IMG/VR virus record: IMGVR_UViG_3300028591_000090 | Location: 32,001 to 96,000 of that record | Origin: a virus | Lineage: Duplodnaviria > Caudoviricetes | Length of the DNA: 64,000 nt | Reading direction: 5' to 3' (one strand) | Shown: in pieces, positions 15,717 to 45,463 of the stretch | Numbering within the stretch: the stretch's first letter is position 1 | Layout: every line of letters starts with the position of its first letter | Notes under the pieces: generated by a model | Seen by the model: only the letters and a program-made list of their open reading frames with translations | Databases searched by the model: none | What the model was told of the DNA's origin: nothing | Translations under genes and position numbers: made by a program

Positions 15717-15729
15717 TTTATGCTTTTTG

Positions 15730-15805
15730 TGTGTTAGGTTGGATTCGAACCAACGACCTTCTGCTCCACAAACAGACGTTCTAAACCAACTGAACTACTA
15801 ACACC
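15730..15805 (-). tRNA. tRNA-His (GTG)
   Basis: Cloverleaf, TCTGT-TTGTGGA-GCAGA, G-1 present. Confidence 0.9.
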
Positions 15806-15810
15806 ATGTG

Positions 15811-15884
15811 TTGTTGCGAAGGGACTCGAACCCCTAACGTCCAGAATCAAAATCTGGCATTCTAACCAGTTGAATTACGCAACA
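15811..15884 (-). tRNA. tRNA-Gln (TTG)
   Basis: CCAGA-TTTTGAT-TCTGG. Confidence 0.9.
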
Positions 15885-16033
15885 ATAAAAACGGCTTCAC
15901 GTACCGTTTTGTGGGCTTCAATTAGAATACCACGGAAGTTCATGGTGTGTGTGCACCTAACTTCTCTCACCATAAATCCACACAATTAGTGAGACCTAAA
16001 TCATATAATGCTCCAAATAAGGAGACTTCTTTG

Positions 16034-16107
16034 TGGGAACGGAGAGATTCGAACTCTCACTACATAGATTCTAAGTCTATTGCCTCTACCAATTGGGCTA
16101 CGTTCCC
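16034..16107 (-). tRNA. tRNA-Leu (TAG), short variable loop
   Basis: ATAGA-CTTAGAA-TCTAT; 5-nt variable region. Confidence 0.85.
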
Positions 16108-16166
16108 ATGTGCCCCATACGGAATCCTCACGCTGGGGCTATGATGACAAGCGTTTTTTATTTAGG

Positions 16167-16247
16167 TGCTTTGAGACAAGTTGGGACTCGAACCCAAATC
16201 CGAGGTTTTATTTTAGACCCCGTGTCTTAACCATTAGACGACAAGCA
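16167..16247 (-). ncRNA. tRNA-like RNA (intact D and T arms, oversized anticodon loop, bulged acceptor)
   Basis: GTCT/AGAC D stem, TTGGG-TTCGAGT-CCCAA, CGGGGT-CTAAAATAAA-ACCTCG. Confidence 0.55.
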
Positions 16248-16263
16248 TGAAACACATAAATTG

Positions 16264-16335
16264 TGTTCCGAAAAGGAATCGAACCTTTATTGTCTGCTTA
16301 GAAGGAAGATGTTCTATCCATTGAACTATCGGAAC
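16264..16335 (-). tRNA. tRNA-Arg (TCT)
   Basis: Loop CTTCTAA; one mismatch in anticodon stem. Confidence 0.85.
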
Positions 16336-16339
16336 TTTT

Positions 16340-16564
16340 GCACACCTAACAGCACTCCTATGGAATTACCCAATGGTCTGTTGCCTTTACTGGCTCAGGG
16401 ACTCTGGTTTGTGTGCTCTACTATAGTCCCTTTTTCGTTAAAATTTGGACGCCTGAAGATGCTTCCCTGCGTGGATACTCACGTCCTCGTTCTTACTTCG
16501 CTACTCACGCTTTTAGTCGACATATTAAACGCTTTTGCTTTTCTGACTCAGTTCATTGCTAGTG
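16340..16564 (-). ncRNA. unidentified structured RNA between tRNA-Glu and tRNA-Arg
   Basis: GC-enriched; terminal ACACTAGCA/TGTTAGGTGT, AGGGACT/AGTCCCT and GGACG/CGTCC helices. Confidence 0.45.
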
Positions 16565-16639
16565 TCGTGCATAGGGGATTTGAACCCACTAATTTCTTCC
16601 TTGAAGGGGAAGCGACTTAACCAATTCGTCTAATGCACG
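16565..16639 (-). tRNA. tRNA-Glu (TTC)
   Basis: CTTCC-CCTTCAA-GGAAG. Confidence 0.8.
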
Positions 16640-17443
16640 TTTTTTTAATTTATTATAAATCATTCCTTTACCAGCACAACTTCGTGAACAATAAAATGTT
16701 CCAGTTCTAAATTTACCATGTCTATAAAATAATTTACCACAAAAAGCACATTCATAATTATTATCATAACTATTATCATATAGTTCTTCTAAATGTTTTA
16801 CATTATATTTGTCTTTGCAATAATTTATATAAAATAACATATCATCATAATATAAAACTTTAGAATTTTCTGGTAAATGTTTTAATTTTTCTTCTGTTAT
16901 ATTTGTTTTAAAACCTTTTATTTCATATATTATACCATCTATTTCAAAATCTGGATTATAAAAATGTTTTTCTCCATCAAATTCATATTCTAATTTTTTA
17001 TCACATCTTTTTATGTTTGAATTGTTATCAAGATGATAAATAAGAAATGCAAGTTCCCAAGTAGAATCTAAAAAGAAACCTTTATAAAAACCTTTATGTC
17101 CTCTACCACTACCTTTTCTATATCCTCCATACTTAACATTTTCTTTCAACCATTTTTCTTTACATTCTTCTGAACAATATTTAGAATTTCTCTTTCTTAA
17201 ATCAAATTCAGTACTGCAATATTTACATTTTTTAATTTTTGGTATTTTGGCTTTTTCTCTTCTAATTTCGTTATTAAAAGGGACCCATTTACCACCATGC
17301 ATTAAAGTGTAACCAATTTTCTTTTTTGTTTCTTCTGAATGGTGTCGTGTATTTGCACAACTTTTAGAACAAAATCTTCCAGAACCATAATTCCCATTAT
17401 GTTCTTTTCCACAATTTTCACAAATAAAAATTTGATTTTCCAT
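16589..17443 (-). CDS. free-standing homing-endonuclease-like protein (Cys/Zn repeats plus PD-(D/E)xK domain)
   Basis: CENCGK..FCSKSC repeats, HSEETKKKI (NUMOD3-like), DSTWE..YNPDF..IYEIKG. Confidence 0.75.
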   Translation of the reverse strand: MENQIFICENCGKEHNGNYGSGRFCSKSCANTRHHSEETKKKIGYTLMHGGKWVPFNNEIRREKAKIPKIKKCKYCSTEFDLRKRNSKYCSEECKEKWLKENVKYGGYRKGSGRGHKGFYKGFFLDSTWELAFLIYHLDNNSNIKRCDKKLEYEFDGEKHFYNPDFEIDGIIYEIKGFKTNITEEKLKHLPENSKVLYYDDMLFYINYCKDKYNVKHLEELYDNSYDNNYECAFCGKLFYRHGKFRTGTFYCSRSCAGKGMIYNKLKKRALDELVKSLPLQGRN

Positions 17444-17582
17444 AATTATTTTTATCTTTTTTTATAGGTTATTGGTAGTAACCTTTATTTTATTTAGTTT
17501 TAAAAAATAGTAGTTAGATAAAACTATGGATAATTTTATCAATTGGCTACCAACCAGATGTCCTACTATTTTTATAGTTTAT

Positions 17583-17661
17583 GCTTGTGTATGATAGGCT
17601 TCGAACCATATGCCTCTCTATCTCTATAGATTGTTCTGCCATATTAAACTACAACACAAGC
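17583..17661 (-). ncRNA. tRNA-like RNA with 4-nt loop in place of the anticodon loop
   Basis: Extended acceptor GCTTGTGT/ACACAAGC, D arm, TCTAT-AGAG-ATAGA, TTCGAA T loop. Confidence 0.55.
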
Positions 17662-17783
17662 ATTTCGTTTTACTAAAAACTCTACGACTTTGCAAAACTA
17701 CTCCGTGGAAAACGATACACGTTTCATTTACTTAAACCATCCATTGAGACCGGATGCAGTCTCATTTAAGCGTGTGAATTTTG

Positions 17784-17860
17784 CGGTGACAGTAGGATTC
17801 GAACCTACGACCCAGGGATTAACAGTCCCTTGCTCTAAAAACCAACTGAGCTATGTCACC
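17784..17860 (-). tRNA. tRNA-Asn (GTT)
   Basis: AGGGA-CTGTTAA-TCCCT. Confidence 0.9.
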
Positions 17861-17864
17861 ATAA

Positions 17865-17937
17865 TATTTAAGTTTGGAATCGAACCAAAGCCTTTCTCAA
17901 TACATGGAGAAGATGCAGACCACTACACTACTTAAAC
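17865..17937 (-). ncRNA. tRNA-like RNA with 8-nt anticodon loop
   Basis: TTCTC-CATGTATT-GAGAA; acceptor and T arm intact. Confidence 0.55.
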
Positions 17938-17938
17938 G

Positions 17939-18012
17939 TGGACCAGACTGGGCTTGAACCAGTGACCTCCTGATTATGAGTCAGTTGCTCTGACCAACTG
18001 AGCTACAGGTCC
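17939..18012 (-). tRNA. tRNA-Ile2/Met (CAT), Ile2-like body
   Basis: CTGA-CTCATAA-TCAG; body resembles lysidine-type Ile2 tRNAs. Confidence 0.8.
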
Positions 18013-18165
18013 AAAAAAAGTGGTAGAAGGAATAGTTTCAAATCCATAGAAAAACATGGAAATTGTTTATAATTTAATAATTACTGGGTGAACTACTACA
18101 CCCTCTATCCCATTGTTGAAAACTTTTGAGAATACTTTTCTAATTAATAACTACCACTTAAATCT
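18013..18165 (-). ncRNA. orphan TnpB omegaRNA-like scaffold (18035..18165) plus putative guide (18013..18034)
   Basis: Close copy of 29910..30045 (tnpB 3' end and right end), diverging after GAAACTAT. Confidence 0.75.
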
Positions 18166-18281
18166 TCGCCGTGCTGACCTTACACCTATGATTGCTACTC
18201 TTACACATATTAGTTGTACACCTAAATATGTGATATGGTGCACCGTTTCACAACCACGCAGACTCGAACTGCACCTGCGAC
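18166..18281 (-). ncRNA. circularly permuted tRNA-like RNA (YrlA/Y-RNA-like topology)
   Basis: Order 5' TCGC, T arm, TGGTTG...CAATCA acceptor closed by insert, D arm, GCGA 3'. Confidence 0.55.
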
Positions 18282-18292
18282 ATGCTTTTTTG

Positions 18293-18363
18293 CTCGGTCG
18301 AAGGGACTCGAACCCTCATACGCCCCCGTCAATGGGGCTGTTCTACCGTTAAACTACAACCAA
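18293..18363 (-). ncRNA. atypical tRNA (loop ATTGACG, class I body)
   Basis: Full cloverleaf but A32/C37 loop; TGA anticodon without the Ser long arm. Confidence 0.55.
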
Positions 18364-18458
18364 GAAACACATTCTAACGCTGCAACATTATTATGTGCCA
18401 ATGGACATAAATGCTTTAATCGTTTGCAGACAATCTTTGCATTCGCCAATCCATTTAG

Positions 18459-18530
18459 AACAAGAAATGAGAATCGAACTCACATATCCAGTTTTGAAGA
18501 CTGGAGCACTAACCGTTGTGCTATTCTTGC
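18459..18530 (-). tRNA. opal (UGA-reading) suppressor tRNA, anticodon TCA, tRNA-Gly-like body
   Basis: CCAGT-CTTCAAA-ACTGG; body closely resembles tRNA-Gly at 20196; U73. Confidence 0.85.
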
Positions 18531-18539
18531 ATTTTTATG

Positions 18540-18626
18540 TGGCTCAAATCGGACTCGAACCGATACGAGCATTTCTGCCCCTGGGATTTTAAGTCCCATG
18601 CGTACTACCAATTTCGCCACTGAGCC
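18540..18626 (-). tRNA. tRNA-Leu (TAA)
   Basis: TGGGA-CTTAAAA-TCCCA, long variable arm. Confidence 0.9.
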
Positions 18627-18634
18627 AAAATTTG

Positions 18635-18751
18635 AGTCGCCAACTGGATTCGAACCAGTATCTCCAATGTGATTTAGGAAAATCTTACGTATTGTACAGA
18701 ATGAGGCTGTACCGACCTCAAATACGTTGGCACCTATTAGACGATGGCGAC
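18635..18751 (-). ncRNA. tRNA-like RNA with pseudoknotted ~40-nt insertion in the D region
   Basis: Perfect GTCGCCA/TGGCGAC acceptor and T arm; insert ACGTATT[TGAGG..GTACAG CCTCA]CTGTAC AATACGT. Confidence 0.55.
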
Positions 18752-18757
18752 AAAAAG

Positions 18758-18860
18758 TTGTGTTAGATGGATTCGAACCAACAATGTATGCTATTCTACA
18801 TGCTTATTTACATACTCCTACCACAAATGTAGGTGGGTTTACCATTTCCCCTATAACACG
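18758..18860 (-). ncRNA. class II-like tRNA with TTG anticodon and very long variable arm
   Basis: CCTAC-ATTTGTG-GTAGG; ~34-nt variable region closed by GTATG/CATAC. Confidence 0.55.
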
Positions 18861-18867
18861 AATTTTG

Positions 18868-18939
18868 TTGCGAGAGAGGGATTCGAACCCACGACCTACA
18901 GCTTATGAGGCTGCCGAGCTACCTCTGCTCTATCTCGCA
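18868..18939 (-). tRNA. tRNA-Met (CAT), initiator-like D arm
   Basis: GCAGC-CTCATAA-GCTGT; GAGC/GCTC D stem. Confidence 0.85.
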
Positions 18940-18952
18940 ATATATTTTATTG

Positions 18953-19026
18953 TGGTCGTTCTACGACTCGAACGTAGGACTTCTTCGGTATCAGCGAAGT
19001 ACTCTAACCAACTGAGTTAAACGACC
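18953..19026 (-). tRNA. tRNA-Ile (GAT)
   Basis: CTTCG-CTGATAC-CGAAG. Confidence 0.9.
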
Positions 19027-19039
19027 AAGAATAATCAAA

Positions 19040-19435
19040 ACTAAAAAGTGTGTTTAATCATTAAGTAACATTATAGTAAACACAGATTATTGTCTACATC
19101 CGTAACACGGCTTTCGTTACTAATCACTTTGCAAGCAAAGGCAACAATAATCTTTTACTTTTTTACAAACTCTTTTTCTGTTCGATGGCGAGTTTATTTA
19201 TGGTCCATTTCCGTTGCCAAGTAACATAATTCATAGCAAACAATCACGGAAACCTACGATGAGTTGTTGAGTAACAAACAAAAGTTGCTATATCAAGGAC
19301 GACATATATATAATCGGCTAAATGACCGACTTTCAGAACCTTGTTCTGCTATCCGAGATTATCTTACCTTGATTTAAGATAGATACAAATTCATTGTATC
19401 TCTTGGAGAGTTTAGGCAGTAGTTGTCTTTCTACT
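19040..19435 (-). ncRNA. large (~400 nt) unidentified structured RNA
   Basis: About ten helices, long-range AAACTCT/AGAGTTT, pseudoknot ATCAAGG/CCTTGAT, no ORF. Confidence 0.6.
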
Positions 19436-19437
19436 TG

Positions 19438-19511
19438 CGGGTAGTACGAGATTCGAACTCGTGAACTCCTCATAGACAGTGAGGAATGATAGACCGCTTC
19501 ACCAACTACCC
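19438..19511 (-). tRNA. tRNA-Asp (GTC)
   Basis: CCTCA-CTGTCTA-TGAGG. Confidence 0.88.
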
Positions 19512-19629
19512 AAATTTGAGGTTATTTTTATACGTATGGCTCGTAAACTTATTCTGTCTTTCTTATGCGTTCTGCTGTTACACATTAGTCTAAAGAAGTA
19601 ACATCTATAAGTATATTTACGATTTCCAT

Positions 19630-19729
19630 TTCACCTCAAGCATCATTTGTTTAAATGCTTACGTTTACATCTTTTTCCTTTTCCCGTATGTCAAAGAACT
19701 CGTTTGTTTTATTTAACGATGCAAATATA
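19630..19729 (-). promoter_or_regulatory. internal promoter, boxA-like element and conserved leader hairpin
   Basis: TATATTTGC (19721-29), GAGTTCTTTGACATACGGGAAAA, AGCATTTA..AAATGATGCT..AGGTGA; paralogous to 21715..21847. Confidence 0.75.
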
Positions 19730-19785
19730 CAACAATGTTTTGAAACAACCAAATAAAACAACAACTTTTTTTTATTTTTTTTTTG

Positions 19786-19871
19786 CGGAGATTGTAGGAC
19801 TTGAACCTACACGTCTTACGACTACTGACAGTTTAGCAAACTGCTCCCTTACCAATTAGGGTTAAATCTCC
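19786..19871 (-). tRNA. tRNA-Ser (GCT)
   Basis: GCAGT-TTGCTAA-ACTGT, long arm. Confidence 0.9.
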
Positions 19872-19881
19872 ATATTATATG

Positions 19882-19954
19882 TACTCGTGCAGAGACTCGA
19901 ACTCCAATCTTCAGATCCGTAGTCTGATATTCTAATCCATTGAACTACACGAGC
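19882..19954 (-). tRNA. tRNA-Arg (ACG)
   Basis: TCAGA-CTACGGA-TCTGA. Confidence 0.9.
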
Positions 19955-19959
19955 AGTTG

Positions 19960-20031
19960 AGCACTCTATTGGAGTCAAACCAATTTATACGGTTTTGCAG
20001 ACCGCCACCTAAATCGTCCGGTACAGAGTGC
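19960..20031 (-). tRNA. tRNA-Cys (GCA)
   Basis: GCGGT-CTGCAAA-ACCGT, U73. Confidence 0.82.
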
Positions 20032-20195
20032 AAAAATGTGTTGGAAAATCCTCGTGCAACACCACACGCCAACTCAACGATTTGGCTCCATCTCGTAAGA
20101 TGCTACTTTAGAAAGTTTTCCCAAAGCATTCACACAATTAGTGTGAGAGACGTTTCGATCCTACTTTTAACATGTATTATATGTAGGCTATAATG

Positions 20196-20267
20196 AGCAG
20201 ATAAAGAGAATCGAACTCTCATCTCCAGAGTGGAAGTCTGGAGCACTAACCATTGTGCTATATCTGC
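20196..20267 (-). tRNA. tRNA-Gly (TCC)
   Basis: CCAGA-CTTCCAC-TCTGG, U73. Confidence 0.9.
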
Positions 20268-20272
20268 ATAAA

Positions 20273-20512
20273 TTATCTTAATTCAATTAATTCTTCTTTT
20301 TCTATTGCTTTACGAATCCAACGCATCAAAATAATTGCTTTATCATAATGGCACATAAACGTAGCAGTTTCTCCTACATCGTGTGTGTCTGCCAAATTGA
20401 TTTCCAATTGATATTTTTTACCACTTTCTGACGTTAATTCATAAATTGCAACACCGCCTGCTTTAACGCAAACCATATCTGCATTTCCTTTAATAATATC
20501 TTTCAAATCCAT
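20273..20512 (-). CDS. small hypothetical protein inside the tRNA operon
   Basis: Start moved to MDLKDIIK (the longer call overlaps tRNA-Pro). Confidence 0.7.
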   Translation of the reverse strand: MDLKDIIKGNADMVCVKAGGVAIYELTSESGKKYQLEINLADTHDVGETATFMCHYDKAIILMRWIRKAIEKEELIELR

Positions 20513-20531
20513 AATATATGTATTATTTTTG

Positions 20532-20604
20532 TCTGGGTAGCAAGACTCGAACTTGCGACCTGATGGTCCCAAACCACCCGTTCTACCAACTGAACTATAC
20601 CCAG
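20532..20604 (-). tRNA. tRNA-Pro (TGG)
   Basis: GGTGG-TTTGGGA-CCATC. Confidence 0.9.
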
Positions 20605-20613
20605 TTTATTTAG

Positions 20614-20686
20614 TGACTCCGATGAGGTTCGAACTCATGACCCCATCCTTAAAAGGGATGTGCTCTCCCAACTGAGCTACGAAGTC
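20614..20686 (-). tRNA. tRNA-Lys (TTT)
   Basis: CATCC-CTTTTAA-GGATG. Confidence 0.92.
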
Positions 20687-20954
20687 ATGTGCTAATATCG
20701 TATGTTCTTCGTTTTGTTTGTTCTGGGCGGTTAAAAGAGAACAACAGATTTGGTAGTCTTTTCAATCTTAGCATTTTCTGAAAAGAATCGTTCCGCACCT
20801 ACGTCTAACTTTTGTACTATTCACCACGAGTTTACGATGACCTTGAGTCTGTTTACGATTACCAGTCGTTCCAGAAGTCCATCTACATAGTTACTTTGGC
20901 AAGTTTCGTCTATGCCAGCGTTTGTTTATAACCTCAACGCAATTTGGTATTTTG

Positions 20955-21029
20955 TGGAAGCGATGGGACTTGAACCCACGACTTTCTGCGTGCAAGGCAG
21001 ATGTTCTAGCCAAACTGAACTACACCCCC
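20955..21029 (-). tRNA. tRNA-Ala (TGC)
   Basis: TCTGC-CTTGCAC-GCAGA; G3.U70. Confidence 0.92.
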
Positions 21030-21039
21030 ATAAAAGAAT

Positions 21040-21250
21040 CTTGACGTATTTCTTATGAGAATTCCTTCAACGGATTATTTAGTGCCATTAAATAACCATT
21101 CCTTTGATTTTGTCTGTTATGCATAAATGAACTTATGCACTCTAACCATATGTCATATACGTTAGAATGTTTTCCCGACAAATCGTGAAGGTTAAGGCTC
21201 AAAGTACTAAGTTTACCTTTTCTTCACGACTGCTATGATATAGCGTCAGG
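21040..21250 (-). ncRNA. unidentified multi-hairpin RNA (~210 nt)
   Basis: Ends pair (CCTGACG/CGTCAAG); TCGTGAAG/CTTCACGA, TGCATAA/TTATGCA and other internal hairpins. Confidence 0.5.
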
Positions 21251-21261
21251 CTGCAATTGCG

Positions 21262-21346
21262 TGGGAGAGGAGGGATTCGAACCCCCTGTGTTTCTATGTG
21301 CTGGTTTTACAGACCAGTGCTACTCCACCATCGTAGCCGCTCTCCC
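21262..21346 (-). tRNA. tRNA-Tyr (GTA)
   Basis: CTGGT-CTGTAAA-ACCAG. Confidence 0.9.
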
Positions 21347-21352
21347 AAAATG

Positions 21353-21439
21353 CGGAGAGGGAGGGATTTGAACCCCCGGTGCTTTTTAGGGCACGACGGT
21401 TTTCAAGACCGTTGCAATAAGCCTCTCTGCCACCTCTCC
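21353..21439 (-). tRNA. tRNA-Ser (TGA)
   Basis: ACGGT-CTTGAAA-ACCGT, long arm. Confidence 0.92.
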
Positions 21440-21452
21440 GAGTAAAATTTTG

Positions 21453-21526
21453 TTGGCTTAGTGAGACTCGAACTCACACTTTATAGGTTTTGAATCTATT
21501 TCCTCTACCGATTGGGATACAAGCCA
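21453..21526 (-). tRNA. tRNA-Leu (CAA), short variable loop
   Basis: Loop TTCAAAA; body similar to Leu(TAG) at 16034. Confidence 0.8.
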
Positions 21527-21533
21527 ATGTTGT

Positions 21534-21587
21534 CTATCTAGTGTGATTCGAACACACGTGCTCATGTTTCTAATGCAGGCCTAGATA
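21534..21587 (-). ncRNA. mini-tRNA (acceptor plus T arm, no D arm)
   Basis: TATCTAG/CTAGATA stem stacked on GTGTG-TTCGAAT-CACAC. Confidence 0.5.
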
Positions 21588-21601
21588 ATGATAAAATTAA
21601 G

Positions 21602-21674
21602 AGCTCCCACACGGATTTGAACCGCAGTCCCCTGATTACAAGTCAGGTATAATAACCAACTATACGATAGGAGC
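21602..21674 (-). tRNA. tRNA-Thr (TGT)
   Basis: CCTGA-CTTGTAA-TCAGG. Confidence 0.9.
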
Positions 21675-29909: not shown

Positions 29910-31264
29910 GTTTCAAAATCCATAGCAAAATATGGAAATTGTTTATAATTTAACAATTACTGGGTGAACTACAACACCCTCTATCCCATCGTTGAAAACT
30001 TTTGGGAATGCTTTTCTCATGATGTTATAGCTTCCGTTTACATCTGCGTTTATCTTGTTCCCATTTTCTGAAATAAACAAGCCACGGCGAACACGCTTGC
30101 CTTTATAAACATCATGCTTTTTAATTTCTTCCAAATCAAGGAAACTGCATTTAGATGTGTAGTTTTCCTCGTTTGTAATTACTTTTATCCCCACCTTTTC
30201 GCATTTGTATGAAATCATTTCAACAAATCTACTGTGGGGTATTTGTATGAAGTTCTGATTGTTTTTTGAACCGATGTTACAGTCTTTCTTCCATCCGTCG
30301 TTCTTTCCAATAACCAGAACAGATATATTCTTGTCTTTTAAATCATTGACTATTCTCTTACTTGCACGATGCAAGTAGTTGTCTACTTTATTATTCCTTT
30401 TATTTGTGAGCCTTCTTGTCCTATGCGAATGCTTTTTCTTATTGACTTTTTCTAATTTAGACTTATGTTTCGCAAGTTCCTTATTATAGAACTGGTTCAT
30501 CGATTTCAAAGGTTTTCCGTTTATTATAACTGGCTGTTCTCCATACGAATATGTTACCGTAGCAAGGTTATTAACGCCTAAATCAATTGAGGCAATTCTT
30601 TTATTGAATTTTACTTTTTCTACATCATCTATTGTATAGATTACCTCAATTACATATTGCTCGATTCTTGGAACAATCCTTACACAATTTATTGATTTAA
30701 AGTCGTTTATTTTTGTATAAAATTCTATGTTTACTTTTGATAGTTTAATTTTATGGGACTTATCAAATACTTTTTTTGAGATAGTCTGATTGTTGAATAC
30801 TGTAACATATCTTCCATCTTCTTTGTGTAAGAATTTTGGAAACTTGATGTTTTTATTATCAACATTATTTGAACGAATCATTCCGAAAAACGAGTTGCAA
30901 GTCGCATGAACAGCACGAAGTGTCGCCTGAGCAACCTTCTGCGGAAGTCGCTTGAAGCATTCATCGTTCTTCATATATAAATACGAATCATTCAATACAT
31001 TATATGTTTTGCTTTCTTCATATTCCTTTCGTATCAGATATAATGTCCTGTTATATATGTTTTTTGAAGAAAAACACAGCGAATCACATTCCTTATATAA
31101 GGAATGATTTCTATTAATAATATGTCTTTCTACCAATTGCATTTCTGTATAATAATACAGTTTCTTTTTATTATTTATTTGCAAAAATAATTGATTTTTT
31201 TTGTCAAATAAATTGTATTGTTTCCATAAATTTTCTATAATGTTATATAAAAATAATACAGACA
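29910..31264 (-). mobile_element. non-autonomous IS200/IS605-type tnpB element (right end +/-3 nt)
   Basis: Inserted after TTTAT; removal restores the C-terminus ...IPASLLYKMI* of the interrupted gene; subterminal hairpin and TTTGAAAC end. Confidence 0.7.
29943..31142 (-). CDS. tnpB: TnpB RNA-guided endonuclease (399 aa from MQLVERH), rearranged RuvC-II type
   Basis: SIDLGVNN, VIG in place of the usual E with alternative E in NEENYTS, INADVNG. Confidence 0.88.
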   Translation of the reverse strand: MQLVERHIINRNHSLYKECDSLCFSSKNIYNRTLYLIRKEYEESKTYNVLNDSYLYMKNDECFKRLPQKVAQATLRAVHATCNSFFGMIRSNNVDNKNIKFPKFLHKEDGRYVTVFNNQTISKKVFDKSHKIKLSKVNIEFYTKINDFKSINCVRIVPRIEQYVIEVIYTIDDVEKVKFNKRIASIDLGVNNLATVTYSYGEQPVIINGKPLKSMNQFYNKELAKHKSKLEKVNKKKHSHRTRRLTNKRNNKVDNYLHRASKRIVNDLKDKNISVLVIGKNDGWKKDCNIGSKNNQNFIQIPHSRFVEMISYKCEKVGIKVITNEENYTSKCSFLDLEEIKKHDVYKGKRVRRGLFISENGNKINADVNGSYNIMRKAFPKVFNDGIEGVVVHPVIVKL

Positions 31265-31973
31265 ATAAACTTGCTGGAATATTTTCATAAGTGAAATAAC
31301 AATTTTTAATATTCATTGCTGTATCTTTATATATCTTAATATTATTTAATTTATTTAAATTTATTTTAAAAACAACATATTGTTTAAGTCCAAGACTATC
31401 TGCCAATTCTGATAATTGTTCATCTATTGTACTAAAATCACTTGTTGAATATAAAAAAATCTTTTCTGGATAATATCTATATTCTGCACTTCGGCAACGT
31501 AATCCTTTTTTCATAATAAAGTTATAGTTTCTTTTATTTGTTATATGGAAACAAATTCCTTTATTTTCATTAAAGATTATATCCGTTGCATCTGTTGTAT
31601 AAACTGGTTCTATATATAATGTATCATCATCATTATAAGTAATATAATAATTAAAAAAATCTAATATATTTTTAAAATGTTCATTTAACAGTATTTCTAT
31701 TTTCCTATCTTTATTTTTACATTTAATTTCAAGGTTTGTTTTATCATCACTTGTTATCTTATTATATTCAACATCATCTGCAACATATTGTTTTAATTTT
31801 GCAATAAGAGAGTCTATATTATGAGATTGTAACATTTCACCTATAAAATCATATCTCCAATCTTCATTAAATTTTTCTTCAATCAATGAAAAGTCATTAC
31901 CGAAGAAATCTTTCAAAAATTTCTTTTTCTCGCAACATTTACAATATTCGTCAAACAGTAATACTTTTTTCAT
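29943..31973 (-). CDS. in-frame fusion ORF: ADP-ribosyltransferase-fold-like phage protein plus TnpB
   Basis: N-terminal part has FHIT.....I.KKGL..IFL..VFKI..YFTYENIP pattern; read-through across the IS left end has no stop. Confidence 0.5.
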   Translation of the reverse strand: MKKVLLFDEYCKCCEKKKFLKDFFGNDFSLIEEKFNEDWRYDFIGEMLQSHNIDSLIAKLKQYVADDVEYNKITSDDKTNLEIKCKNKDRKIEILLNEHFKNILDFFNYYITYNDDDTLYIEPVYTTDATDIIFNENKGICFHITNKRNYNFIMKKGLRCRSAEYRYYPEKIFLYSTSDFSTIDEQLSELADSLGLKQYVVFKINLNKLNNIKIYKDTAMNIKNCYFTYENIPASLLSVLFLYNIIENLWKQYNLFDKKNQLFLQINNKKKLYYYTEMQLVERHIINRNHSLYKECDSLCFSSKNIYNRTLYLIRKEYEESKTYNVLNDSYLYMKNDECFKRLPQKVAQATLRAVHATCNSFFGMIRSNNVDNKNIKFPKFLHKEDGRYVTVFNNQTISKKVFDKSHKIKLSKVNIEFYTKINDFKSINCVRIVPRIEQYVIEVIYTIDDVEKVKFNKRIASIDLGVNNLATVTYSYGEQPVIINGKPLKSMNQFYNKELAKHKSKLEKVNKKKHSHRTRRLTNKRNNKVDNYLHRASKRIVNDLKDKNISVLVIGKNDGWKKDCNIGSKNNQNFIQIPHSRFVEMISYKCEKVGIKVITNEENYTSKCSFLDLEEIKKHDVYKGKRVRRGLFISENGNKINADVNGSYNIMRKAFPKVFNDGIEGVVVHPVIVKL

Positions 31974-43829: not shown

Positions 43830-43915
43830 ACAATATATCCGATGAAATAAAATTACTCAAACTTACTCAATGCTTGATTTGAATAATTCTCTGTGGATTG
43901 CAATCCACTCCATCG
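43830..43915 (-). ncRNA. putative omegaRNA scaffold of the second TnpB-like gene
   Basis: TCCGATGG/TCATCGGA enclosing GTGGATTGCAATCCAC and AATTATTCAAA/TTTGAGTAATT hairpins over the stop codon. Confidence 0.5.
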
Positions 43916-45463
43916 GAACGACAGAAGTTTATCCTTTAAATCACATCTTTTGATATTCAAAGGTTCAAAACTTCCGTCAATATTTTGTTTTAAGAGTGGT
44001 CGAAACACGGTTTCGCTTACTCTGTTTCTTATATTGACACTTGCATTATGGTCTGCATTATCACTATGACCACAACATGTACATACAAATTCTTCTTGTG
44101 TTTTTCTATTGTTCTTATCTATGTTTCCACAAACAGAACACATTTGACTGGTGTAGGAAGAGTGTACTATTGATAATTGCATGCCATAATTCTGTGCTAT
44201 ATGTTTAACTTCTTGCTTTAAAGATGAAATATTTAGTGCAGATACAAGTCTATTGTAATTTATCTTATCAAATTCTTCTGTTTTTGCAAACGATTTCTCA
44301 AATCCATTGTCAAGATTTTCCATAACAATATGGTCATAACCATTAGAAGATAATGTTTTACACATTTTGGCAATCAGATTCTTATTAGAATATTTTATCT
44401 TGTTCGCTATGACATCTATCTTGTGTTGTCTTCTTTTACCAACGGTATATTTTTCATCTTTAGACTTCAAATCATCAGTATACTTTCGTTCTGACAAATA
44501 ATCCTTGACTAATTTGTGATTGTAGTCAAAAATTTCTCCAGTAGAGCAAGAAAATAGATTATGTTTAGTATTTACGTCAATTCCTATAAATGATTTTTTG
44601 TTCTCTATCATTATTCTCTCGCAATCCTTGCACAGATTAATCTTAATTGTTTTGTGATATTCGTCAAAACAAATTATATATTCATAGTCATTCGTCTGTT
44701 TCCTCCAAGACATCATATTATCGTGGTAATCCTTTGCAAATTTAACAGGTATATCAAAGGACTTTCTATCAAATCCAGATAGACTAATGAAAGCATTTAT
44801 TACAGAGTTATAGTTCTTATTGTAGTCAACAATTCTTTTCTTTCTGCTTCTTCCACCGAATGTCAACTTCTTGAACTCGATTGGTTCTTTGTATCGTTTT
44901 AATATATAGTCTCTCTTCTGGCGTGTGAGATTCCATAGTCTTTCAAATCCAAATTTGTCAATGACTCTATTCATCATAGAGAAGAAATCCTCTTCCGTCT
45001 TTAAACGAATAAACTCAAGAACAGATGTATTGTTACATTTAATAAGATACGTTAATGTCTTTGACAAATCAGTCGAACTTCTTCTTATCTTTGTCTTCTT
45101 GAAATCACCTTTCTTGTTTTTCTTTGTAGTCCTTTTATAAAACTCAAGACCAAGGTACTCAACTTTCTCAAACTTTAGTTTTCTCCTTAATTGAACGAAC
45201 CGATTCTCATAGCAAGTATAAACGTGAGTATAGAGTTGGTTATCGAATGACGATGGAATTTTGTTTTTGTACTTATTCCTCATATATTTCATAAAGTCAA
45301 ACTTCGACATTTCGTGATAAAACATTATGTTTGAATTCACATCATTTGATACAATATTCTTGTGGTTACGTAATGTAATAGCAAAGTCATACAACTCATT
45401 GTACTTTTCCTTAGTCAATGAGTCTGACATAAATGATTTAGTATGTTTGCTTTGAATTATCAC
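43853..45463 (-). CDS. tnpB: large TnpB/Cas12f-like RuvC nuclease (536 aa)
   Basis: GIDVN, VMENL, TSQMCSVCG..CTCCG..NADHNAS.NI. Confidence 0.85.
   Translation of the reverse strand: MIIQSKHTKSFMSDSLTKEKYNELYDFAITLRNHKNIVSNDVNSNIMFYHEMSKFDFMKYMRNKYKNKIPSSFDNQLYTHVYTCYENRFVQLRRKLKFEKVEYLGLEFYKRTTKKNKKGDFKKTKIRRSSTDLSKTLTYLIKCNNTSVLEFIRLKTEEDFFSMMNRVIDKFGFERLWNLTRQKRDYILKRYKEPIEFKKLTFGGRSRKKRIVDYNKNYNSVINAFISLSGFDRKSFDIPVKFAKDYHDNMMSWRKQTNDYEYIICFDEYHKTIKINLCKDCERIMIENKKSFIGIDVNTKHNLFSCSTGEIFDYNHKLVKDYLSERKYTDDLKSKDEKYTVGKRRQHKIDVIANKIKYSNKNLIAKMCKTLSSNGYDHIVMENLDNGFEKSFAKTEEFDKINYNRLVSALNISSLKQEVKHIAQNYGMQLSIVHSSYTSQMCSVCGNIDKNNRKTQEEFVCTCCGHSDNADHNASVNIRNRVSETVFRPLLKQNIDGSFEPLNIKRCDLKDKLLSFRWSGLQSTENYSNQALSKFE

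What the first reader, a model, noticed from the sequence alone, without database searches (positions are those of the whole stretch)
18459..18530. UGA-reading tRNA built on a tRNA-Gly body in a region that still stops at TGA
Seen: canonical loop CT-TCA-AA. The sequence GCAAGAATAGCACAACGGTTAGTGCTCCAG...GAGTTCGATTCTC parallels the operon's tRNA-Gly(TCC) GCAGATATAGCACAATGGTTAGTGCTCCAG...GAGTTCGATTCTC; both have U73 and C2-G71. Known: UGA=Gly is genetic code 25 (Gracilibacteria/Absconditabacteria), whereas recoded gut phages are mainly TAG=Gln or TGA=Trp. Many genes in this window end in TGA. Inference: regulated UGA-to-Gly read-through, recoding of genes outside this window, or an incipient code change.
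Basis: partly seen in the sequence, partly recalled or inferred. Interest (0 to 1): 0.76.

Follow-up and report, generated by a model that had tools for sequence, protein, structure and literature searches.

The report
Glycine-derived stop-codon-reading phage tRNA
A large phage that otherwise uses the normal genetic code carries a real tRNA that reads the stop codon UGA and descends from a glycine tRNA. Stop-reading tRNAs are already known in such phages, but a glycine-derived one is unusual, and what it inserts and what it is for remain untested.

Summary
Window 18459-18530 (minus strand) is a well-formed 72-nt tRNA with anticodon UCA, inside an array of at least 26 tRNA genes. With the anticodon masked, its 18 nearest neighbours among 365 phage tRNAs are all tRNA-Gly. 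It is 57/72 identical to the array's own tRNA-Gly(UCC), and every stem difference is compensatory.

It keeps U73, C2-G71 and C35. It has lost two glycine identity elements, C36 (now A36) and G1-C72 (now G1.U72), so glycine charging is likely but not shown.

The 183.6-kb contig is not recoded. Coding density barely changes if TGA is read as sense, 24 of 212 ORFs stop at TGA, and there are no RF, GlyRS or TrpRS genes. Promoter and leader motifs point to a standard-code Bacteroidota host.

Only one gene, outside the window, has an in-frame TGA inside a conserved domain. It is a chimeric, possibly decaying gene, and homologs have Ser or Val at that position. Back-up TAA/TAG stops lie unusually close behind TGA terminators.

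Best reading: a live, probably weak opal suppressor in a pre-recoding state. Suppressor tRNAs in standard-code phages are already published, and this scan noted a similar one on other DNA. Read-level checks were not possible.

The parts
18459..18530 (-). tRNA with anticodon UCA (reads UGA). It has 7/4/5/5 stems, an 8-nt D loop, a 4-nt variable loop, G1.U72, C2-G71, A3-U70 and U73, and no encoded CCA.
   Evidence: ARAGORN; Rfam 65.9 bits; sequence; the MFE fold is a cloverleaf.
18495..18497 (-). Anticodon U34 C35 A36 within the loop CUUCAAA (18493-18499). The A36-A37-A38 run is the context typical of tRNAs that read U-starting codons.
   Evidence: Read. The loop differs from the family's tRNA-Gly loop CUUCCAA by the single change C36 to A.
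20196..20267 (-). Resident tRNA-Gly(UCC), the paralogue with G1-C72, C2-G71, A3-U70 and U73.
   Evidence: ARAGORN; Rfam 72 bits; 57/72 identical to the UCA tRNA.
18540..18626 (-). tRNA-Leu(UAA), ending 8 nt upstream of the UCA tRNA. Co-transcription is inferred from the spacing only.
15729..21674 (-). tRNA array holding the suppressor. Default settings find 24 genes, and relaxed settings add at least 2 more. No tRNA-Trp, tRNA-Phe or tRNA-Val was found.

Best explanation
This is a functional opal-decoding tRNA. It arose from a phage tRNA-Gly(UCC) gene of the type carried by crAss-like gut phages, through a C36-to-A change in the anticodon. It sits in a large low-GC phage that uses the standard code and, judged by its promoters and leaders, infects a standard-code Bacteroidota host. 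It is made with the rest of the tRNA array (inferred). A host synthetase most likely charges it, and host GlyRS is the best single guess because the body, U73, C2-G71 and C35 are glycine-type. Charging is probably inefficient because C36 and G1-C72 are lost. It competes with host RF2 at UGA and gives partial read-through rather than a new code. The genome looks adjusted to this. TGA is a minority terminator, back-up TAA/TAG stops lie close behind TGA stops, and one gene carries an in-frame TGA that only such a tRNA could read through. That matches the 'suppressor acquired, recoding not yet spread' stage proposed for phage code change. Shown: the tRNA, its ancestry, the absence of bulk recoding, the single in-frame TGA and the host-type signals. 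Inferred: expression, the charged amino acid, actual read-through and any benefit.
For: tRNA quality. Ancestry has three lines of support. (1) A metagenome scan for its D arm plus the start of the anticodon stem returned 33 loci, and every one is a phage-array tRNA-Gly (UCC, one GCC) or a truncated Gly 5' half; none has UCA. (2) It is 53-62/72 identical to 14 distinct family members. With the anticodon masked, the top 18 of 365 tRNAs are all Gly (50-60 of 69 positions), against at most 47 for any other isotype, 41 for Trp and 44 for Cys. (3) The best annotated hits are tRNA-Gly of crAss-like phages: IAS virus at 91.5% over positions 7-65, and cr111_1. Not recoded: coding density 0.826 vs 0.849; stops are TAA 157, TAG 31, TGA 25; 8 of 24 TGA stops overlap the next gene's start. 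No RF1/RF2, TrpRS or GlyRS domains were found. Target: a whole-contig screen leaves one in-frame TGA. Its 78-codon extension exactly fills a 236-nt gap. Homologs P0002 (57% identical), P0003, P0005 and P0021 align across the TGA to a shared C-terminus. An ENA assembly of the same sample calls the same 281-aa truncated product. Back-up stops: the next TAA/TAG lies a median 5 codons after TGA stops, against 10-13 after TAA/TAG stops (Mann-Whitney p = 0.004-0.015). Host: TAnnTTTG occurs 44 times upstream of genes against 17.1 +/- 3.6 in shuffles, 28 of them 20-40 nt before the start; SD-like motifs occur in 9 of 213 leaders. Precedent: standard-code phages with suppressor tRNAs (bioRxiv 10.1101/2021.08.26.457843; PMC12386605; PMC6102473).
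Against: No ortholog with a UCA anticodon was found in IMG/VR or the JGI metagenomes. The age and conservation of the anticodon are therefore unknown, and one base (A36) carries the whole reading. Reads could not be examined. G1-C72 and C36 are glycine identity elements in E. coli and T. thermophilus (PMC9976931), and both are changed. Bacteroides appears to use the dimeric GlyRS (control list), for which tolerance of A36 is unknown. The only in-frame TGA is in a chimeric gene: a lipoprotein N-domain fused to the tail of an LRR-protein family, with no homolog sharing both parts. It lies beside a 35-46% GC insert, so the TGA may simply be decay. The aligned residues S/V/V/S do not name the amino acid. 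The back-up-stop signal is modest and could stem from gene overlaps. The contig is an estimated 69% complete.
Confidence: 0.5

Rival explanations
1. The tRNA reads UGA but is charged with tryptophan (or cysteine), not glycine. The A36 change together with G1.U72 moved it away from GlyRS. It then serves as the phage's UGG/UGA-reading Trp tRNA, as in code-4 phages.
For: C35 and A36 are shared with tRNA-Trp and tRNA-Cys, and U73 plus C35-A36 are the strongest Cys elements (PMC9976931). The array has no tRNA-Trp. Phages whose code differs from their host's have so far shown only TGA-to-Trp, and UCA suppressors are reported to be tryptophanylated in E. coli (bioRxiv 10.1101/2021.08.26.457843). A Gly-charged UCA tRNA that also wobbles onto UGG would miscode Trp codons (548 TGG in the called genes).
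Against: Bacterial TrpRS needs G73 (PMC9976931). All six distinct tRNA-Trp(CCA) sequences and most other phage tRNA(UCA) genes I fetched have G73, whereas this one has U73. The body is no closer to Trp (41/69) or Cys (44/69) than to unrelated isotypes. A weak tRNA-Cys(GCA) already exists at 19961-20030. G34, needed by CysRS, is U here.
Confidence: 0.2
2. The tRNA is a second tRNA-Gly copy that recently suffered an anticodon mutation, or the record carries a base-call or minor-variant error. It is neutral, mildly harmful or poorly charged, and the in-frame TGA elsewhere is unrelated gene decay.
For: A single base separates the loop from the family's Gly loop. No ortholog carries UCA. Three positions typical of tRNA-Gly are changed (72, 36, 45), which could reflect relaxed constraint. 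The TGA-bearing gene is a rearrangement product. Reads were not available.
Against: All 21 stem pairs are intact, with compensatory changes relative to every relative, and the Rfam score is mid-range for the array. No related Gly(UCC) gene with this acceptor stem was found, so it is not a fresh duplicate. TGA terminators have close back-up stops. The one nonsense codon in 212 ORFs is the one this tRNA reads, though by my own rough estimate of mutation opportunity, chance alone would give TGA about 30% of the time.
Confidence: 0.15
3. Its purpose is not to decode phage genes but to disturb the host. Read-through of host UGA terminators weakens host or defence proteins, as proposed for the 'non-functioning' suppressor tRNAs of Zeta crAss-like phages.
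For: There are almost no phage targets. The phage protects its own TGA-ending genes with nearby TAA/TAG stops. The same puzzle and hypothesis appear in PMC12386605, and Atu_ph07 has a UCA suppressor with 267 phage UGA stops (PMC6102473).
Against: There is no direct evidence. Nothing in the contig links the tRNA to a defence or anti-defence gene. This reading is compatible with the best explanation rather than exclusive of it.
Confidence: 0.1
4. The phage infects, or alternates into, a code-25 host (Absconditabacteria or Gracilibacteria). There tRNA-Gly(UCA) is an ordinary sense tRNA, and the genome is kept compatible with both codes.
For: Phages of code-25 hosts that remain code-11 compatible show no in-frame TGA and have several different stops close together at gene ends (PMC10746230). 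That resembles. The contig is low in GC.
Against: The contig has Bacteroidota-type -7 promoter motifs at a fixed distance and leaders without SD motifs. tRNA and protein affinities are to crAss-like and Lak phages. The tRNA is only 48/72 identical (hand count) to a code-25-type phage tRNA(UCA), L009, which keeps the full Gly set. A phage gains nothing from a UGA decoder if it has no UGA codons.
Confidence: 0.05

Closest known systems
Opal or amber suppressor tRNAs in standard-code phages: Agrobacterium phage Atu_ph07 tRNA(UCA) (PMC6102473); a standard-code Agate phage with a TGA suppressor (bioRxiv 10.1101/2021.08.26.457843); Zeta crAss-like phages with unused suppressors (PMC12386605)
   Same: A phage tRNA array holds a stop-reading tRNA while the phage still terminates genes at that stop and shows no or almost no in-frame use. 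The rare stop is followed closely by another stop.
   Different: Where those papers address the amino acid, the UCA suppressors are taken as Trp-type. This one has a tRNA-Gly body with U73. One conserved domain here does carry an in-frame TGA.
tRNA-Gly(UCA) of code-25 bacteria (SR1/Absconditabacteria, Gracilibacteria) and their phages (PMC3812714, citing Campbell et al. 2013; PMC10746230; comparator locus L009)
   Same: A glycine-type tRNA whose anticodon became UCA, with U73 and C2-G71.
   Different: Those tRNAs sit in genomes dense with in-frame TGA, and L009 keeps G1-C72 and G3-C70. This one is in a standard-code genome, has G1.U72 and A3-U70, and is only 48/72 identical to L009. That indicates an independent origin.
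TGA-to-Trp suppressor tRNAs of code-4 phages (Jade, Agate, Lera; bioRxiv 10.1101/2021.08.26.457843; PMC12386605)
   Same: UCA anticodon, in a phage tRNA array, with standard-code hosts.
   Different: Those genomes hold tens of TGA-containing genes, sometimes alongside RF1 and TrpRS genes. Most fetched phage tRNA(UCA) genes have G73. Here there is one in-frame TGA, no such genes, and U73.
tRNA-Gly(UCC) genes of crAss-like gut phages (IAS virus NC_049978, cr111_1) and of uncultured phage arrays
   Same: Same D arm, T arm and architecture: 91.5% identity over positions 7-65 with IAS virus, and 53-62/72 with 14 family members.
   Different: Anticodon UCA instead of UCC, G1.U72 instead of G1-C72, and U45 instead of G or A.
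Laboratory UGA suppressors derived from E. coli glyT (work of Murgola and colleagues). Cited from my own memory; not found in the paper library
   Same: The same C36-to-A route from tRNA-Gly(UCC) to a UGA reader, reported to insert glycine.
   Different: Those were selected mutants in E. coli, which has the tetrameric GlyRS. This is a natural phage gene, and its likely host has the dimeric enzyme.

Membership tests
Canonical type I elongator tRNA (Rfam RF00005) | Cloverleaf with 7/4/5/5 stems, conserved U8, A14, G18G19, U33 and T-loop, and a score above the gathering threshold | tested here: met
   65.9 bits against 29; 21/21 stem pairs; the MFE fold is a cloverleaf.
tRNA-Sec (ARAGORN's label) | 8+5 acceptor/T helix, 6-bp D stem, long variable arm and G73 | tested here: not met
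   It has 7+5 helices, a 4-bp D stem, a 4-nt variable loop and U73. The label follows from the anticodon alone.
Phage tRNA-Gly(UCC) gene family (by descent) | Shared D arm, T arm and architecture, with nearest neighbours all Gly when the anticodon is masked | tested here: met
Bacterial glycine acceptor (identity set, PMC9976931) | U73 | tested here: met
   T at position 73.
Bacterial glycine acceptor (identity set, PMC9976931) | C2-G71 | tested here: met
Bacterial glycine acceptor (identity set, PMC9976931) | G1-C72 | tested here: not met
   G1.U72 here. All 14 distinct intact family tRNA-Gly sequences have G-C.
Bacterial glycine acceptor (identity set, PMC9976931) | C35 and C36 | tested here: not met
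   C35 is present, but position 36 is A.
Bacterial glycine acceptor | Actual charging with glycine | not testable with these tools
   Needs an aminoacylation assay or mass spectrometry.
Bacterial tRNA-Trp | G73, A1-U72 and a CCA-type anticodon (PMC9976931) | tested here: not met
   U73 and G1.U72; only C35 and A36 are shared. Best body match to any Trp tRNA is 41/69.
Bacterial tRNA-Cys | U73, G34 C35 A36 and G15 (PMC9976931) | tested here: inconclusive
   U73, C35 and A36 are met; G34 (U here) and G15 (A here) are not. Best body match is 44/69.
Stop-codon-recoded phage (code 4 or 25) | Clear gain in coding density when TGA is sense, with many conserved genes carrying in-frame TGA | tested here: not met
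   0.826 vs 0.849; one gene only. The contig is about 69% complete, so the remainder is untested.
Stop-codon-recoded phage (code 4 or 25) | Code-change genes (RF1, TrpRS or another aaRS) | tested here: not met
   No match to PF00472, PF03462, PF00579, PF02091 or PF00587.
Standard-code phage carrying a suppressor tRNA | The stop-reading tRNA coexists with use of that stop as a terminator | tested here: met
   24 of 212 ORFs end in TGA, and 8 of those overlap the next gene's start.
Suppressor tRNA plus PTH2-like gene pair (lead from an earlier scan note) | A PTH2-like gene next to the suppressor | tested here: not met
   No PF01981 match in the contig.

The most novel reading that the evidence does not exclude
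A phage of a standard-code Bacteroidota host inserts glycine at UGA using its own tRNA-Gly-derived suppressor. That would be an independent, virus-borne origin of the UGA-to-Gly reassignment (code 25), caught at its first step: one suppressible gene, with back-up stops behind TGA terminators. It would break the published pattern that phages whose code differs from their host's reassign TGA only to Trp.
Probability: 0.25. Interest if true: 0.7.

Novelty: new variant of a known kind. Interest (0 to 1): 0.45.

Why it matters
Phage stop-codon recoding is thought to begin when a phage with rare TGA or TAG stops acquires a suppressor tRNA, after which in-frame stops accumulate. Examples of that first stage are few, and the origin of the suppressor tRNAs is rarely traced. 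Here the origin is clear: a crAss-type phage tRNA-Gly(UCC), one anticodon change away. The genome shows what an early stage should look like. If the tRNA is charged with glycine in a standard-code host, UGA-to-Gly would not be confined to code-25 bacteria and their phages. The tRNA would also be a natural case of a synthetase tolerating loss of an anticodon identity base. If it is charged with Trp or Cys, it is a natural identity switch on a glycine body. Either way one reporter experiment can settle it.

Tried and rejected

Orthologs: two IMG/VR pattern scans for the anticodon arm with D-stem and T-loop context found nothing. A looser scan gave 9 tRNA(UCA) genes, none related except the Gly-type L009. 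A D-loop plus anticodon-loop scan returned mostly a protein-coding motif of other, unrelated viral contigs.

Relatives: the search for related loci with the UvsW-like helicase found no relative in IMG/VR. The large metagenome contigs sharing the Gly D arm are not related phages by protein content and could not be searched whole.

Other checks:
- tRNA-Sec is rejected on architecture.
- A code-25 host is rejected on promoter and leader evidence.
- No RF, TrpRS, GlyRS or PTH2 genes were found.
- There is no Gp23 Pfam match (none of the control genomes matched the family either), so I do not call the phage T4-like. It has UvsW-like and Dda-like helicases that are under 35% identical to known phages.
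- The sigma-70 promoter and terminator scan was uninformative.
- The AlphaFold model of the TGA-bearing domain had mean pLDDT 53.6. That is too low for a fold search, so none was run.
- Pfam, PHROGs and Atlas gave no function for that gene.
- The lower rate of TGA stops beyond 100 kb (3/62 vs 21/150) is not significant (p = 0.06).

Full report
THE OBJECT. ARAGORN finds 24 tRNA genes on the minus strand between 15729 and 21674. One of them, at 18458-18530, has anticodon tca. Rfam's tRNA model scores it at 65.9 bits (gathering score 29), in the middle of the array's range of 34.8-72 bits.

Read from the sequence, it is a 72-nt type I tRNA:
- Acceptor stem GCAAGAA/UUCUUGU, with G1.U72, C2-G71 and A3-U70.
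- D stem GCAC/GUGC, with the 8-nt loop AACGGUUA.
- Anticodon stem CCAGU/ACUGG, with loop CUUCAAA.
- A 4-nt variable loop, T stem GUGAG/CUCAU, T loop UUCGAUU, and discriminator U73.
- No encoded CCA end.

All 21 stem pairs are Watson-Crick or G.U, and the minimum-energy fold is the cloverleaf. It is not a tRNA-Sec, because it lacks the 8+5 helix, the long extra arm and G73. It lies 8 nt after tRNA-Leu(UAA).

ANCESTRY. The tRNA is 57/72 identical, without gaps, to the array's tRNA-Gly(UCC) at 20196-20267. Differences in the acceptor, anticodon and T stems come as compensating pairs. This is the closest of all 276 tRNA pairs in the array.

I scanned the JGI metagenome contigs for the 21-nt D arm plus the start of the anticodon stem that the two genes share. 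The scan gave 33 loci. Every one is a tRNA-Gly (UCC, once GCC) in a phage-type tRNA array, or a truncated 5' half of one. None has UCA.

The UCA tRNA is 53-62/72 identical to the 14 distinct family members, so it is not a fresh copy of the resident gene. With the anticodon masked, its 18 nearest neighbours among 365 tRNAs from all fetched loci are all Gly (50-60 of 69 positions). The best of any other isotype is 47, with Trp at 41 and Cys at 44.

In annotated phage records the best hits are tRNA-Gly of crAss-like phages. IAS virus matches at 91.5% over positions 7-65 and has the same T arm, and cr111_1 also matches. The anticodon loop differs from the family's CUUCCAA by one base, C36 to A.

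WHICH AMINO ACID. The identity sets below come from Giegé and Eriani (PMC9976931).
- Glycine set: U73, C2-G71 and C35 are kept. G1-C72 is G.U here, although all 14 relatives have G-C. C36 is A.
- Tryptophan set: G73 and A1-U72 are absent, and only C35 and A36 fit. All six distinct tRNA-Trp(CCA) sequences I fetched have G73, as do six of the nine other phage tRNA(UCA) genes.
- Cysteine set: U73, C35 and A36 fit, but G34 and G15 do not. A weak tRNA-Cys(GCA) already sits at 19961-20030.

The body says glycine, but two glycine identity positions have moved. I put glycine first without regarding it as shown. Bacteroides thetaiotaomicron did not match the GlyRS alpha-subunit family in the control panel, so the likely host enzyme is the dimeric type. 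Its tolerance of A36 is unknown to me.

IS THE GENOME RECODED? The window is 32001-96000 of a 183,630-bp, 29% GC viral contig that is linear and about 69% complete by CheckV. ORFs of at least 150 codons cover 0.826 of it under code 11, 0.849 with TGA as sense and 0.840 with TAG as sense. No block changes.

A greedy ORF set of 213 covers 92.7% of the contig and ends in TAA 157, TAG 31 and TGA 25 times. One TGA-ending ORF is a spurious frame across the tRNAs. In the window the count is 16 TGA stops among 85 ORFs. Eight of the 24 TGA stops overlap the start codon of the next gene. No release factor, TrpRS, GlyRS or other class IIa synthetase, or PTH2 domain is encoded.

THE ONE IN-FRAME TGA. I screened every stop-to-stop frame that stays open when TGA is read as sense. 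All candidates but one are antisense shadows of larger genes.

The exception is genome 126225-127304 on the minus strand (L001 6225-7304), outside the window. A 281-codon ORF ends in TGA, then runs open for 78 more codons to a TAG. This exactly fills the only gap there.

A search of 1.84 billion representative proteins shows that residues 108-360 match the C-terminal domain of four proteins of 453-501 aa. These are P0002 (57% identical, E = 4e-79), P0003, P0005 and P0021. Their alignments cross the TGA and end at the same C-terminus. The TGA column lies between an invariant Asp and a conserved x-Gly. The homologs have S, V, V and S there, so the site names no amino acid. An ENA assembly of the same sample calls the same 281-aa product followed by the same gap.

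There is a caveat. Residues 1-107 belong to a different family of small lipoproteins (P0004, 71% identical), and no homolog has both parts. The gene abuts a 35-46% GC segment in a 27-33% GC background. An earlier scan note (e1-5779773) reads the tail as the remnant of a displaced adhesin. The TGA could therefore be the first step of decay rather than a used codon. By my own rough estimate of mutation opportunity in this AT-rich genome, a random nonsense mutation would be TGA about 30% of the time. The coincidence with the suppressor is therefore only weak evidence.

A low-confidence model (pLDDT 53.6) puts the TGA in a turn after a beta-strand, with three more long strands following.

SIGNS OF ADJUSTMENT. 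After TGA terminators the next in-frame TAA or TAG lies a median of 5 codons away. After TAA and TAG terminators the median is 13 and 11 codons, or 10 for the two pooled once long in-frame extensions are removed (Mann-Whitney one-sided p = 0.004, 0.009 and 0.015 under three cut-offs). This is what a genome living with UGA read-through should show. It is also reported for unused suppressors in Zeta crAss-like phages (PMC12386605) and for code-11-compatible phages of code-25 hosts (PMC10746230). The signal is modest, and overlapping gene junctions may add to it.

HOST. TAnnTTTG, the Bacteroidota -7 promoter motif (from my own knowledge), occurs 44 times in the 120 nt upstream of genes. Shuffles give 17.1 +/- 3.6. 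Twenty-eight of the 44 lie 20-40 nt before the start codon. SD-like motifs precede only 9 of 213 starts. tRNA and protein affinities to crAss-like and Lak phages agree with this. This points to a standard-code Bacteroidota host and away from a code-25 host.

One IMG/VR contig, L009, does carry a Gly-type tRNA(UCA) with the full identity set in DNA that only reads open with TGA as sense. It is the known code-25 type, and it is only 48/72 identical (hand count) to this tRNA. The two are therefore independent conversions.

WHAT IS KNOWN. Several precedents are in print:
- Atu_ph07 has a UCA suppressor together with 267 UGA stops of its own (PMC6102473).
- A standard-code Agate phage has a TGA suppressor, taken as a step before recoding (bioRxiv 10.1101/2021.08.26.457843).
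- Zeta crAss-like phages keep suppressors without recoding (PMC12386605).
- tRNA-Gly(UCA) underlies code 25 (PMC3812714).

The same preprint states that phages whose code differs from their host's show only TAG-to-Gln and TGA-to-Trp. This scan also noted a U73 opal suppressor in a standard-code soil phage (e1-5695039). What is new here is the combination: a glycine-derived UCA tRNA in a standard-code phage of an apparently standard-code host, with one suppressible gene.

VERDICT. The most likely reading (0.5) is a live, probably weak opal suppressor of glycine ancestry in a pre-recoding genome. The charged amino acid, its activity and its benefit are untested, and the anticodon base could not be checked against reads.

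Noticed in passing
window 18293-18363 (-): A 72-nt tRNA with anticodon UGA (a Ser codon reader) but no long variable arm. It has a Gln-like U1-A72/G73 acceptor and C at position 37, and scores 44 bits in Rfam. A normal 88-nt tRNA-Ser(UGA) exists at 21352-21439. It may be a mis-sense or decayed tRNA.
   Followed up: partly
window 17865-17937 (-): A tRNA with an 8-nt anticodon loop CAUGUAUU (ARAGORN gives 'tgta'), G1.U72 and A73. It scores 42.4 bits in Rfam under lax filters. It is a candidate four-base or frameshift-type decoder.
   Followed up: partly
window 18758-18860 (-) and 18632-18749 (-): Two long tRNA-like genes just upstream of tRNA-Leu(UAA) and the suppressor. The first is 103 nt, with a roughly 35-nt extra arm, and scores 38 bits in Rfam. 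The second is 118 nt, with a good acceptor stem, U73 and T arm but no Rfam hit. Default ARAGORN misses both.
   Followed up: partly
window 19961-20030 (-): A weak tRNA-Cys(GCA) with U73 and an atypical D arm. It scores 26.3 bits in Rfam, below the gathering score, and ARAGORN finds it only at a relaxed threshold.
   Followed up: partly
genome 126225-130066 (L001 6225-10066), outside the window: A chimeric gene (lipoprotein N-domain fused to the tail of an LRR-protein family) lies beside a 35-46% GC segment holding 398-aa and 490-aa genes.
   Followed up: partly
L041, L053, L057, L062 (metagenome contigs): A truncated 5' half of a Gly(UCC) tRNA ends just after its anticodon loop and is followed by a spacer and a different, complete tRNA-Gly(UCC). 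This looks like the scar of a tRNA gene replacement.
   Followed up: no
L088, L114, L117 (IMG/VR contigs): Trp-type tRNAs of 96-97 nt (A1-U72, G73, encoded CCA) carry two anticodon-like arms in tandem. The first has loop CUUCAAA (UCA) and the second has CUCCAAA (CCA).
   Followed up: no
window 29943-31973 (-) and 43853-45463 (-): Two TnpB/IS605 OrfB-type genes in the phage (PHROG transposase hits).
   Followed up: no
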